A DNA stretch of 64,000 bases from the NCBI RefSeq assembly GCF_017348835.2, contig NZ_CP071375.1; one strand, given 5' to 3'. How positions within the stretch are numbered: position 1 is the stretch's first letter; each line of letters opens with the position of its first letter. Below are positions 12,001-15,000 of the stretch, piece by piece. The stretch comes from Escherichia coli. Its GTDB lineage: Bacteria > Pseudomonadota > Gammaproteobacteria > Enterobacterales > Enterobacteriaceae. A program made the position numbers.

Positions 12001-15000
12001 CGCAGTTTAATCCTTTCGATCTTTATCTCGGCACATCTGCCGGGGCGCAGAACCTCTCGGCGTTTATCTGCAATCAGCCCGGTTACGCGCGCAAAGTCAT
12101 CATGCGCTATACCACAAAACGCGAATTTTTCGATCCATTGCGCTTTGTCCGTGGAGGAAATCTTATCGATCTCGACTGGCTGGTGGAAGCCACCGCAAGC
12201 CAGATGCCGTTGCAAATGGATACCGCCGCGCGGTTGTTTGACAGCGGCAAATCGTTTTATATGTGCGCCTGTCGTCAGGATGACTACGCGCCGAATTACT
12301 TTTTACCAACCAAACAAAACTGGCTGGATGTGATTCGCGCCTCCAGTGCGATACCTGGCTTTTATCGTAGCGGAGTGTCGCTGGAAGGCATTAACTACCT
12401 GGATGGCGGGATCAGTGATGCGATTCCGGTTAAAGAGGCGGCAAGACAGGGCGCTAAAACGTTGGTCGTCATCCGCACAGTGCCGTCACAAATGTACTAC
12501 ACGCCGCAGTGGTTCAAACGCATGGAACGCTGGCTGGGTGACAGTAGCCTGCAGCCGCTGGTCAATCTGGTGCAGCATCATGAAACCAGCTATCGTGACA
12601 TTCAGCAATTTATTGAGAAACCACCGGGCAAGCTGCGGATATTCGAAATTTATCCGCCGAAGCCATTACATAGTATCGCGCTTGGCAGTCGGATTCCGGC
12701 GCTGCGTGAAGACTATAAACTTGGGCGTTTATGCGGTCGTTATTTCCTCGCCACGGTTGGCAAGCTATTAACTGAAAAAGCGCCGCTTACCCGCCATCTG
12801 GTGCCAGTGGTGACGCCGGAATCGATCGTTATTCCGCCTGCGCCAGTCGCCAACGATACGCTGGTTGCCGAAGTGAGCGATGCTCCGCAGGCGAACGACC
12901 CGACATTTAACAATGAGGATCTGGCTTGATTTGCCGTTTTATCGATACCCACTGCCATTTTGATTTCCCTCCGTTTAGTGGCGATGAAGAGGCCAGCCTG
13001 CAACGCGCGGCACAAGCGGGCGTAGGCAAGATCATTGTTCCGGCGACAGAGGCGGAAAATTTTGCCCGTGTGTTGGCATTAGCGGAAAATTATCAACCGC
13101 TGTATGCCGCATTGGGCTTGCATCCTGGTATGTTGGAAAAACATAGCGATGTGTCTCTTGAGCAGCTACAGCAGGCGCTGGAAAGGCGTCCGGCGAAGGT
13201 GGTGGCGGTGGGGGAGGTCGGTCTGGATCTCTTCGGCGACGATCCGCAATTTGAGAGGCAGCAGTGGTTACTCGACGAACAACTGAAACTGGCGAAACGC
13301 TACGATCTGCCGGTGATCCTGCATTCACGGCGCACACACGACAAACTGGCGATGCATCTTAAACGCCACGATTTGCCGCGTGCTGGTGTTGTCCACGGAT
13401 TTTCTGGCAGCCAGCAACAGGCTGAACGGTTTGTACAGCTGGGCTACAAAATCGGCGTAGGCAGTACTATCACCTATCCACGCGCCAGTAAAACCCGCGA
13501 TGTCATCGCAAAATTACCGCTGGCATCGTTGTTGCTGGAAACCGACGCGCCGGATATGCCGCTCAACGGCTTTCAGGGGCAGCCTAACCGCCCGGAACAG
13601 GCTGCGCGGGTGTTTGACGTGCTTTGCGAGTTACGCCCGGAACCCGCGGATGAGATTGCCGAAGTGTTGCTTAATAATACGTATGCGGTGTTTAGCGTTA
13701 GTGGGTAGTTTGCCCTTCGTAGGCAGCATCCGGCAGTCGGCGCATAATGCCTGATGCGACGCTTGTCGCGTCTTATCATGCCTACAGGTTTGTGCCGAAC
13801 CGTAGGCCGGATAAGGCGTTCACGCCGCATCCGGCAGTTGGCGCACAATGCCTGATGCGACGCTTGTCGCGTCTTATCATGCCTACAAGTCTGTGCCGAA
13901 CCGTAGGCCGGATAAGGCGTTCACGCCGCATCCGGCAGTCGGCGCATAATGCCTGATGCGACGCTTAACGCGTCTTATCATGCCTACAGGTTTGTGCCGA
14001 ACCGTAGGCCGGATAAGGCGTTCACGCCGCATCCGGCAGTTGGCGCACAATGCCTGATGCGACGCTTGACGCGTCTTATCAGGCCTACAAGTCTGTGCCG
14101 AACCGTAGGCCGGACAAGGCGTTTACGCCGCATCCGGCATGTCACAAATAGAGCGCCGGAAATATCAACCGGCTCACCCCGCGCACCTTTAATGCATCAG
14201 CCAACGGCTCAACGTCTTCCGGCGTGGCGCTCGGCCAGTTTTGCGCCTCGCCATACACGCCGTGGGCATGAAACGCGTTCAGGCGTACCGGAACATCGCC
14301 GAGTCCCTTGATAAACGCCGCCAGTTCTTCGATGTGTTGCAAATAATCCACCTGGCCAGGGATTACCAGCAAACGCAGTTCCGCCAGCTTACCGCGCTCT
14401 GCCAGCAAACAGATGCTGCGCTTAATCTGCTGATTATCGCGTCCGGTTAATTGCTGATGACATTCGCTCCCCCACGCTTTGAGATCGAGCATTGCGCCGT
14501 CGCACACCGGGAGCAATTTTTCCCAGCCGGTTTCGCTCAACATACCGTTACTGTCCACCAGGCAGGTGAGGTGGCGCAGTTGCGGATCGTTTTTGATAGC
14601 AGTAAACAGCGCCACTACAAACGGCAGTTGGGTCGTGGCTTCGCCGCCGCTTACCGTTATCCCTTCAATAAACAGCACCGCTTTGCGGATATGGCTAAGC
14701 ACTTCGTCCACGCTCATGGATTGCGCCATCGGCGTGGCATGTTGCGGACACATCTTCAGGCAGGTATCACATTGCTCGCAGACCACAGCGTTCCACACCA
14801 CTTTGCCGTTAACAATCTGCAACGCCTGATGCGGACACTGTGGCACGCACTCCCCACAGTCATTGCAACGTCCCATCGTCCACGGATTGTGACAGTTTTT
14901 GCAGCGCAGATTGCAGCCCTGCAAAAACAGAGCCAGACGACTGCCTGGCCCGTCAACGCAGGAGAAGGGGATAATCTTACTGACTAAAGCGCATCTGCTG

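What the first reader, a model, noticed from the sequence alone, without database searches (positions are those of the whole stretch)
13711..14135. Four-copy tandem array of ~101-bp REP units between yjjV and yjjW
The yjjV-yjjW spacer is essentially a head-to-tail array of four nearly identical 101-bp palindromic units with a few unit-specific substitutions. The ORF track even reports two near-duplicate phantom ORFs from it. Arrays like this vary in copy number between strains and can affect mRNA stability.
Basis: seen in the sequence. Interest (0 to 1): 0.3.

Follow-up and report, generated by a model that had tools for sequence, protein, structure and literature searches.

The report
Known BIME-2 REP array, yjjV–yjjW spacer
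The spacer between the convergent E. coli genes yjjV and yjjW is filled by four tandem 101-bp copies of a well-known bacterial repeat (a BIME-2 cluster of paired Y and Z2 REP hairpins, annotated in K-12 as REP352); it is real, its copy number differs between strains, and it is ordinary.

Summary
Tandem Repeats Finder gives period 101, 4.1 copies and 94% matches at 13726-14139.

Each 101-bp unit is not one palindromic unit but a BIME-2 module:
- a 14-nt head-to-head linker
- a 37-nt Z2 REP
- a 16-nt tail-to-tail linker
- a 34-nt inverted Y REP

The window holds 8 intact REPs plus a hairpin-less Y remnant at the yjjV end. Four linker sites alternate between successive units (ABAB), so identity at lag 202 is slightly higher than at lag 101.

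Rfam's naRNA4 model, built on the REP325 BIME-2, matches three modules above its gathering score. The K-12 orthologue is annotated as REP352a-h.

In 59 E. coli genomes sampled evenly from 5,423, the locus has 0 to 6 modules. A cryptic-clade Escherichia has 11. Linker alleles are shuffled between strains, while REP stems are conserved.

The spacer has no intrinsic terminator. Both strands fold far better than shuffled sequence (z = -9.9 and -12).

The most likely role is inferred from work on REP325 and other REPs and was not tested at this locus: a two-way 3'-UTR hairpin barrier and partial terminator, and a gyrase target on DNA.

Novelty: already known. Interest is low.

The parts
12926..13708 (+). 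yjjV (TatD-family metal-dependent hydrolase), upstream convergent gene. Its stop TAG is at 13706-13708.
   Evidence: ORF; PGAP name from the identical PE164 record, (H1).
13719..13734 (+). Y REP remnant GTAGGCAGCATCCGGC: both feet of a Y REP with the inner 18 bp of the hairpin missing. It cannot form a hairpin.
   Evidence: K-12 has an intact Y at the same place.
13735..13748 (.). Head-to-head linker, allele A (AGTCGGCGCATAAT). The same allele is at 13937-13950. Allele B (AGTTGGCGCACAAT) is at 13836-13849 and 14038-14051.
13749..13785 (-). Z2 REP no. 1 (GTAG on the - strand); its tail carries the locus-specific ATCATGCC variant.
   Evidence: (hairpin -14.7/-15.2 kcal/mol).
13786..13801 (.). 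Tail-to-tail linker, allele A (AGGTTTGTGCCGAACC). The same allele is at 13988-14003. Allele B (AAGTCTGTGCCGAACC) is at 13887-13902 and 14089-14104.
13802..13835 (+). Y REP no. 1 (GTAG on the + strand).
   Evidence: I3; hairpin -20.9/-21.3 kcal/mol.
13850..13886 (-). Z2 REP no. 2.
13903..13936 (+). Y REP no. 2.
   Evidence: (I4).
13951..13987 (-). Z2 REP no. 3 (loop TTAAC).
14004..14037 (+). Y REP no. 3.
   Evidence: (I5).
14052..14088 (-). Z2 REP no. 4, the only one with the canonical tail ATCAGGCCTAC.
   Evidence: (I2).
14105..14138 (+). Y REP no. 4, intact (GGACAAGG, loop TTTA). It ends 3 nt from the yjjW stop codon.
   Evidence: (-20.3 kcal/mol on the yjjW-sense strand).
13805..14085 (+). 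Three full-length matches to Rfam RF02564 (naRNA4, the Y-linker-Z2 model) at 13805-13883, 13906-13984 and 14007-14085.
   Evidence: 76.7, 76.0 and 83.1 bits against a gathering score of 59.5.
14142..15005 (-). yjjW (glycyl-radical enzyme activase), downstream convergent gene. Its stop codon is at 14142-14144.
   Evidence: ORF; PGAP name.

Best explanation
This is a BIME-2 cluster, the orthologue of E. coli K-12 REP352a-h. It consists of four tandem 101-bp modules, each made of a Z2 REP and an inverted Y REP joined by a 14-nt and a 16-nt linker, preceded by a hairpin-less Y remnant. It fills the 433-bp spacer between the convergent 3' ends of yjjV and yjjW.

Shown here:
- The anatomy of the array.
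- Its membership of the dispersed REP family.
- Strong hairpin potential on both strands.
- No intrinsic terminator in the spacer.
- Copy number from 0 to 6 modules in E. coli and 11 in a cryptic Escherichia clade, all at the same locus.
- Linker alleles shuffled between strains, while REP stems stay conserved.

Inferred from work on other REPs:
- Transcripts entering from either gene fold into a row of stable hairpins. These block 3'-to-5' exonucleases and cause partial, Rho-assisted termination, so the array would act as a two-way 3'-UTR insulator and stabiliser.
- On the DNA, the Y REPs are preferred gyrase cleavage sites.
- Modules are gained and lost by unequal recombination or replication slippage between the 101-bp repeats, possibly helped by the REP-associated transposase.
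- The 18-bp internal deletions of the terminal Y REPs look like slippage between the GCCG direct repeats that flank the hairpin core.
For: Periodicity.

Element map, with alternating strands of the REP tail motif. The window has 14 REP tails against 0.01 expected by chance, and 8 of them lie in this array.

Y and Z2 identity:
- Full-length Rfam RF02564 hits above the gathering score.
- Side-by-side comparison with K-12 REP325, which has the same Y and Z2 with period 100 but different linkers.
- REP325 is described as six Y-l-Z2 repeats (PMC4550694).

The BIME-2 definition (z2 plus y, tandem copies, short linkers, copy number variable between strains) comes from PMC3333891.

The K-12 locus is named REP352a-h and overlaps yjjV by 2 nt (bioRxiv 10.1101/2024.07.17.603846).

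Folding:
- z = -9.9 on the + strand and -12.0 on the - strand.
- Single hairpins are -15 to -21 kcal/mol.
- No terminator-like site lies in the spacer.

Copy number:
- Census of 59 genomes: 0:3, 1:11, 2:8, 3:6, 4:11, 5:19, 6:1.
- Sequences were read.
- Cryptic clades have 2 and 11 modules at the same locus.

Linker alleles form a mosaic across strains.

Variation sits in loops and linkers: 21 of 39 positions vary there, against 6 of 62 in stems and GTAG (Fisher p = 1.7e-6).

Functional literature:
- REP325 acts as a stabiliser and a partly Rho-dependent terminator, and REPs between convergent genes go with higher expression of both genes (bioRxiv 10.64898/2026.03.23.713779).
- Gyrase cleaves BIME-2 elements, preferring the y REPs (PMC6379681).
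Against: No expression, 3'-end or gyrase data for this locus could be obtained. yjjV and yjjW do not appear in the held supplements of the gyrase paper. The only occurrence of yjjW in the supplements of the 2026 REP preprint is a row of a gene-expression table.

Alleles with no module (a single Y REP in a 33-bp spacer) occur in 3 of 59 sampled genomes. The array is therefore dispensable, and any effect is quantitative at most.

The 2026 preprint stresses that REP effects depend on context and that terminal REPs are not generally associated with longer mRNA half-lives.

The minimum-free-energy folds of the whole array pair Y with Z2 over long range rather than forming local hairpins, so the structure in the cell is uncertain.

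The K-12 orthologue was the one REP region of eight not classed as a RAYT-associated REPIN. This weakens a role for the transposase.

The stem-versus-linker statistic treats related units as independent. Units were also picked with a motif that fixes nine stem positions.
Confidence: 0.85

Rival explanations
1. The modules are genes for nucleoid-associated noncoding RNAs (naRNA4-like). These would bind HU and bridge cruciform DNA to condense the chromosome.
For: Three + strand matches and one - strand match to Rfam RF02564 reach its gathering score.
Against: The Rfam model is simply a Y-linker-Z2 pair, so it matches any BIME-2. The spacer has only one weak promoter-like match (9 of 12 consensus positions, 13720-13748), so transcription would most likely be read-through from yjjV. 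The 2026 preprint, which shares an author with the original work, found no effect of deleting or over-expressing REP325 on nucleoid size, no stable HU-cruciform-naRNA4 complex, and no REP-REP long-range contacts.
Confidence: 0.07
2. Its main role is on DNA. It would be a strong, transcription-independent gyrase site that removes the positive supercoils building up between two convergent transcription units.
For: Gyrase cleavage sites are over-represented in BIME-2 elements, prefer the y REPs and rise when transcription is blocked (PMC6379681). The array lies exactly between convergent genes.
Against: Only a subset of BIME-2 elements is cleaved. This locus is not named in the text or held supplements. 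Alleles with no module exist. This role does not exclude the RNA-level role.
Confidence: 0.3
3. It has no function for the host. It is a locally amplified selfish or neutral repeat, behaving as a minisatellite made of REP doublets, tolerated in a spacer that is free of constraint.
For: Copy number ranges from 0 to 11 with every intermediate value from 0 to 6 seen. Terminal REPs are repeatedly damaged by 18-bp deletions. Most inner Z2 copies carry a stem-weakening G-to-T change.
Against: REP stems are much better conserved than loops and linkers across 32 units. The array has persisted at this locus since before E. coli split from cryptic clades. Some REP is always present, even in the shortest allele.
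Confidence: 0.3
4. The repeats encode small proteins, corresponding to the near-duplicate ORFs seen by the first reader.
For: ORFs of 33-120 aa exist on both strands.
Against: They have no Pfam match. No CDS is annotated in this spacer in the annotation tables returned for nine E. coli records or among the features listed for PE164. The period of 101 bp is not a multiple of 3. Module number varies freely, including zero.
Confidence: 0.01

Closest known systems
REP352a-h of E. coli K-12 MG1655 (EcoCyc annotation), the yjjV-yjjW BIME
   Same: Same locus and same flanking genes. Both have four 101-bp Z2/Y modules, the same two linker motifs and 8 intact REPs.
   Different: - K-12 has an intact first Y REP whose GTAG supplies the yjjV stop codon, and an internally deleted last Y. 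The window has the reverse arrangement.
- YjjV ends ...YTLFNVP in K-12 and ...YAVFSVSG here.
- The order of linker alleles differs.
- Over 1.45 kb the two are about 94% identical.
REP325 (yjdM-yjdN), the model BIME-2 that is the source of naRNA1-6 and of Rfam RF02564
   Same: Alternating Y and Z2 REPs in tandem modules of about 100 bp. The REP sequences are near-identical.
   Different: - REP325 has six modules of period 100, with unrelated linker sequences.
- It lies between co-directional genes of one operon, not between convergent genes.
BIME-1 / RIP (RIB) elements
   Same: Both are built from a pair of inverted REPs, one of them Y.
   Different: BIME-1 is a single copy with a Z1 REP and a long L linker carrying an IHF site. 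This array has short linkers and no IHF core. A BIME-1-like pair with a 35-nt linker lies elsewhere in the window, at 49649-49751.
REPINs (REP doublets mobilised by RAYT / TnpA-REP)
   Same: Inverted REP doublets of about 100 bp. Each REP has a 5' GTAG and a stem mismatch, the features TnpA-REP needs for binding and cleavage in vitro.
   Different: Here the doublets are amplified in place as a tandem array rather than dispersed. The K-12 orthologue was not classed as a RAYT-associated REPIN by RAREFAN.

Membership tests
BIME-2 | Built from y and z2 REPs | tested here: met
   Full-length (1-77/77) matches to the Y-l-Z2 model RF02564 at 76-83 bits, against a gathering score of 59.5. The Y and Z2 are near-identical to those of K-12 REP325. 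Definition from PMC3333891.
BIME-2 | Successive REPs in alternating orientation (head-to-head, tail-to-tail) | tested here: met
   REP tail motifs alternate +,-,+,-... at 13769-14121. Element map.
BIME-2 | Multiple tandem copies with short linkers; no long L linker with an IHF site | tested here: met
   4.1 copies of period 101. Linkers are 14 and 16 nt. No WATCAANNNNTTR on either strand.
BIME-2 | Extragenic, at the 3' ends of transcription units | tested here: met
   Lies between the stop codons of convergent yjjV and yjjW.
BIME-2 | Number of tandem copies at a locus varies between strains | tested here: met
   0-6 modules in 59 sampled E. coli genomes; 2 and 11 in cryptic Escherichia.
BIME-2 | Bound and cleaved by DNA gyrase in vivo | not testable with these tools
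   Literature only (PMC6379681). This locus is not named in the held text or supplements.
REP / palindromic unit | 30-40 nt imperfect palindrome with a conserved GTAG 5' of the stem foot and a conserved internal mismatch | tested here: met
   The Y is 34 nt and the Z2 37 nt, each with GTAG/CTAC. Folds show an interrupted stem at -15 to -21 kcal/mol.
REP / palindromic unit | Dispersed in many copies around the genome | tested here: met
   Six further REP tails lie elsewhere in the window, for a total of 14 against 0.01 expected. The 1.45-kb query hit a median of 24 places per genome, an undercount.
Rfam RF02564 naRNA4 | Score at or above the family's gathering threshold | tested here: met
   83.1, 76.7 and 76.0 bits on the + strand and 61.0 on the - strand, against 59.5.
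Rfam RF02564 naRNA4 | Expressed as a discrete RNA that binds HU and acts on the nucleoid | not testable with these tools
   No expression data were available. The function itself is disputed for the founding locus.
REPIN / RAYT substrate | GTAG and a stem mismatch, required for TnpA-REP binding and cleavage | tested here: met
   Sequence and folds. Requirement from PMC3333891.
REPIN / RAYT substrate | A cognate RAYT gene in the same genome and evidence of mobilisation | not tested
   The window was not searched for a RAYT gene. The K-12 orthologue was the only one of eight REP regions not called a RAYT-associated REPIN.
BIME-1 | Single copy, z1 plus y, long L linker with an IHF site | tested here: not met
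   Tandem copies, Z2-type REPs, 14- and 16-nt linkers, no IHF core.

The most novel reading that the evidence does not exclude
The two ends of the array are polymorphic in a way that could switch translational control between the two convergent genes. REP hairpins within 15 nt of a stop codon have been reported to stall terminating ribosomes and lower protein output (Liang et al. 2015, as cited in PMC12306157).

The alleles differ as follows:
- This strain: an intact Y hairpin starts 3 nt after the yjjW stop. The Y next to yjjV has lost its hairpin, so the first hairpin is 40 nt away.
- K-12: the opposite, with the yjjV stop codon lying inside the GTAG of an intact Y.
- SCZE5 and OZ038535: intact hairpins abut both stop codons.
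- AMR2684, str219 and PD7: hairpins abut neither.

Recurrent 18-bp hairpin-core deletions would then act as heritable on/off switches for REP-mediated translational damping of YjjV and YjjW.
Probability: 0.15. Interest if true: 0.4.

Novelty: already known. Interest (0 to 1): 0.12.

Why it matters
It matters little beyond correct annotation. REP/BIME clusters have been described since the 1980s and 1990s, this locus is annotated in K-12 as REP352, and its copy-number polymorphism is typical of the family.

Three practical points follow:
- The spacer should be annotated as a repeat region. Neither the ORFs in it nor the naRNA4 hits should be reported as genes.
- The locus is a natural allelic series of 0 to 6 modules, up to 11 in a cryptic clade, with intact or damaged terminal hairpins. 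It could be used to test how REP number and stop-codon proximity tune two convergent genes.
- The length differences could serve as a simple strain-typing marker.

Tried and rejected
- **First census attempt.** The whole 1.45-kb region was used as the query. It hit the limit of 40 matching pieces per record in 5,197 records, and arrays of five modules were split, so yjjW seemed to be missing in 18 rows. Reading two of these loci showed intact 516-bp spacers. I repeated the census with a flank-only query.
- **Protein-coding reading of the phantom ORFs.** No Pfam family matched. Rejected.
- **Intrinsic terminator in the spacer.** None found. The only terminator-like site is inside yjjV on the - strand.
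- **IHF site (BIME-1 reading).** None found.
- **Locus-specific gyrase or expression data.** The supplements of PMC6379681 and of the 2026 REP preprint had no yjjV or REP352 entries, and the only yjjW occurrence was a row of a gene-expression table.
- **Original BIME nomenclature paper (PMC333889) and Liang et al. 2015 (PMC4427526).** Neither is held. Definitions were taken from PMC3333891 and PMC12306157 instead.
- **A recent 202-bp duplication in this strain as the cause of the ABAB pattern.** Not supported. The B-A-B core of modules 2-4 is shared with K-12, str219 and PD7, so the alternation is older than this strain.
- **RefSeq NC_000913.3 features.** The tool listed no repeat_region for this stretch. 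The K-12 name REP352 comes from a paper.
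Full report
**1. The observation**

Tandem Repeats Finder reports a single array at 13726-14139 with period 101, 4.1 copies, 94% matches and no indels. In-register units start at 13726, 13827, 13928 and 14029 and differ from each other at 2-8 of 101 positions. Inside the array the fraction of self-matching bases is 0.912 at lag 101, 0.925 at lag 202 and 0.849 at lag 303. The best unrelated lag reaches about 0.35.

The array fills the 433-bp spacer between two convergent genes. The ORF ending at 13708 on the + strand is yjjV. The ORF ending at 14142 on the - strand is yjjW. PGAP gives these names for a 100% identical stretch in E. coli PE164, a pig isolate (H1).

They have no Pfam match. No CDS is annotated in this spacer in the annotation tables returned for nine E. 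coli records or among the features listed for PE164.

**2. Anatomy**

Each 101-bp unit is a composite, not one palindromic unit:
- a 14-nt head-to-head linker
- a 37-nt REP of Z2 type (GCCTGATGCGACGC-loop-GCGTCTTATCAKGCCTAC)
- a 16-nt tail-to-tail linker
- a 34-nt REP of Y type in the opposite orientation (GTAGGCCGGATAAGGCG-TTCA-CGCCGCATCCGGC)

The REP tail motif occurs 14 times in the 64-kb window against 0.01 expected. Eight of these are in the array, on strictly alternating strands. Single Y hairpins fold at about -21 kcal/mol and Z2 hairpins at about -15, each with the interrupted stem typical of REPs.

The array starts with a 16-nt Y remnant, GTAGGCAGCATCCGGC at 13719-13734. It keeps both feet of a Y REP but lacks the 18-bp hairpin core. 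The array ends with an intact Y at 14105-14138, only 3 nt from the yjjW stop codon.

Four sites alternate between successive units: two in each linker, at unit positions 12, 19, 61 and 64. The pattern is ABAB, which is why lag 202 scores higher than lag 101.

**3. What it is**

Rfam's naRNA4 model (RF02564) is a 77-nt Y-linker-Z2 model derived from the REP325 cluster. It matches three modules over its full length at 76-83 bits, against a gathering score of 59.5.

I fetched K-12 REP325, the yjdM-yjdN spacer, for direct comparison. It has the same Y and Z2 sequences in tandem modules of period 100, but its linkers are quite different.

According to PMC3333891, BIME-2 elements have these properties:
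- They are composed of z2 and y REPs.
- The sequence of tandem copies is well conserved within a locus.

All the sequence-testable features are met here. The BIME-1 alternative (single copy, long linker with an IHF site) is not met, because the array contains no IHF core.

The K-12 orthologue is annotated in EcoCyc as REP352a-h and is stated to overlap yjjV by 2 nt (bioRxiv 10.1101/2024.07.17.603846). The element is therefore already known.

**4. Comparison between strains**

A flank-only query of 281 bp from each gene found the locus in 5,423 of 5,426 complete E. coli genomes. It returned 59 full-length places at even steps down the ranking. From the distance between the flanks, the module counts were as follows:

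| Modules | 0 | 1 | 2 | 3 | 4 | 5 | 6 |
|---|---|---|---|---|---|---|---|
| Genomes | 3 | 11 | 8 | 6 | 11 | 19 | 1 |

I read the sequence at nine other E. coli loci covering every class, which confirmed the interpretation. The spacers were 33 bp (a single Y REP), then 116, 213, 234, 314, 419 (K-12), 516 and 616 bp, against 433 bp in this window.

Clonal groups are uniform. The sampled O157:H7 genomes have 2 modules, and the K-12 and B derivatives have 4. The locus is therefore stable over short time scales but variable between lineages. This sample reflects the composition of the database, not natural frequencies.

An exact-pattern scan for the locus-specific tail-to-tail linker covered one genome from each of 100,044 species. 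It found the linker only in two cryptic-clade Escherichia genomes, both at the yjjV-yjjW locus, with 2 and 11 modules. The array therefore probably predates the split of these cryptic clades from E. coli.

Each linker has two main alleles. These occur in all four combinations and in different orders in different strains, as expected from unequal exchange with breakpoints inside the conserved REPs. The B-A-B order of modules 2-4 in the window is shared with K-12, str219 and PD7, so the ABAB pattern is not a recent duplication in this strain.

Across 32 complete modules, 21 of 39 loop and linker positions vary, against 6 of 62 stem and GTAG positions (Fisher p = 1.7e-6). Two caveats apply: the modules are related rather than independent, and they were picked with a motif that fixes nine stem positions.

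**5. The ends of the array**

The terminal Y REPs are often damaged in the same way. The 18-bp hairpin core is lost, leaving one of these forms:
- GTAGGCCGCATCCGGC (str219, right end)
- GTAGGCCGTATCCGGC (K-12, right end)
- GTAGGCCACATCCGGC (FDAARGOS_1282, right end)
- GTAGGCAGCATCCGGC (this window, left end)

The intact Y contains GCCG direct repeats 18 bp apart that flank the core. My inference is replication slippage across the hairpin.

All four combinations of intact and deleted ends occur. In K-12 the intact left Y supplies the yjjV stop codon, the TAG of GTAG, and YjjV ends ...YTLFNVP. Here YjjV ends ...YAVFSVSG, 10 nt before the remnant.

**6. How it most likely works**

Nothing about function could be measured here. 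What follows is inference from established work on the family.

*RNA level.* The spacer has no intrinsic terminator. Both strands fold far more stably than shuffled sequence, with z = -9.9 and -12.0. Transcripts entering from either gene would therefore carry a row of REP hairpins.
- For REP325, a 2026 preprint shows stabilisation of the upstream mRNA together with partly Rho-dependent attenuation, producing a ladder of hairpin-terminated RNAs.
- The same preprint shows that REPs between convergent genes go with higher expression of both genes.
- On that basis I take a two-way 3'-UTR barrier and attenuator to be the most likely role.

*DNA level.* Gyrase cleavage sites are enriched in BIME-2 elements, preferentially in y REPs and independently of transcription (PMC6379681). 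This role is compatible with the RNA role and fits a site between convergent genes.

*Nucleoid RNA model.* The naRNA/HU model suggested by the Rfam hit is weakened by the same 2026 preprint.

*Neutral repeat.* A purely neutral repeat cannot be excluded, because alleles with no module exist. The persistence of at least one REP at the locus and the conservation of stems argue mildly against it.

*Exonuclease protection.* REP352 was one of eight K-12 REP regions with exonuclease-protected DNA coverage under SDS or copper stress. It was the only one of the eight not called a RAYT-associated REPIN.

**7. The most novel reading not excluded**

REPs within 15 nt of a stop codon have been reported to stall terminating ribosomes and reduce protein yield (Liang et al. 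2015, cited in PMC12306157). The end polymorphism places an intact hairpin next to yjjW only (this strain), yjjV only (K-12), both (SCZE5, OZ038535) or neither (AMR2684, str219, PD7). Hairpin-core deletions could therefore act as heritable switches of translational damping for the two genes. This is speculative; I give it a probability of about 0.15.

**8. Verdict**

The element is already known. Interest is low.

Noticed in passing
window 13520-13536 (+) and 14920-14936 (-): Both convergent genes contain a published intragenic sigma-54 binding motif (PMC4591121). CTGGCATCGTTGTTGCT lies in yjjV, with one base different from K-12, and points toward the array. CTGGCTCTGTTTTTGCA lies in yjjW and matches exactly. 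I did not examine whether transcription from the yjjV site enters the array.
   Followed up: partly
window 13680-13735 versus L004 832-900: There are two different yjjV 3' junctions. In K-12 the stop codon is the TAG of the first REP's GTAG, and YjjV ends ...YTLFNVP. In the window YjjV ends ...YAVFSVSG, followed by 10 nt and a hairpin-less Y remnant. REP-associated rearrangement has changed the last residues of the protein.
   Followed up: partly
L013 3226-4354 (Escherichia sp. MOD1-EC7003): The same locus in a cryptic-clade Escherichia carries 11 modules, a spacer of about 1.1 kb and the longest array seen. It has more diverged linkers and one rearranged head-to-head linker, AGTTGTGCGCCGAT.
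   Followed up: partly
window 13776, 13877, 13978 (Z2 tails): Three of the four Z2 REPs carry ATCATGCC instead of the canonical ATCAGGCC. This weakens the stem foot, so the Z2 hairpin is -15 kcal/mol against -21 for Y. The variant is shared by most inner modules in the other E. coli strains and in the cryptic clades, while in several arrays, including this one, the module next to yjjW is canonical. It is an old, locus-specific signature spread by local amplification.
   Followed up: partly
window 49649-49751: A single BIME-1-like pair: a Z-type REP, a 35-nt A+T-rich linker (GTGAATTCTGCAATATATTGAATCTGCATGCTTTT) and a Y REP. It contrasts with the short-linker tandem array and is probably a RIP/RIB-type element. 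I did not test it for an IHF site.
   Followed up: no
window 6003-6095, 17623-17639, 35633-35649: Further REPs of the same family: one inverted pair with a 22-nt linker and slightly diverged stems (GCCAGATG..., GTAGGTCGG...), and two single REP tails.
   Followed up: no
whole-region search: Only 10 of 5,465 records match the 1.45-kb region at 99% identity or more. The exact allele in the window (left Y deleted, right Y intact, four modules) is therefore rare among complete E. coli genomes.
   Followed up: no
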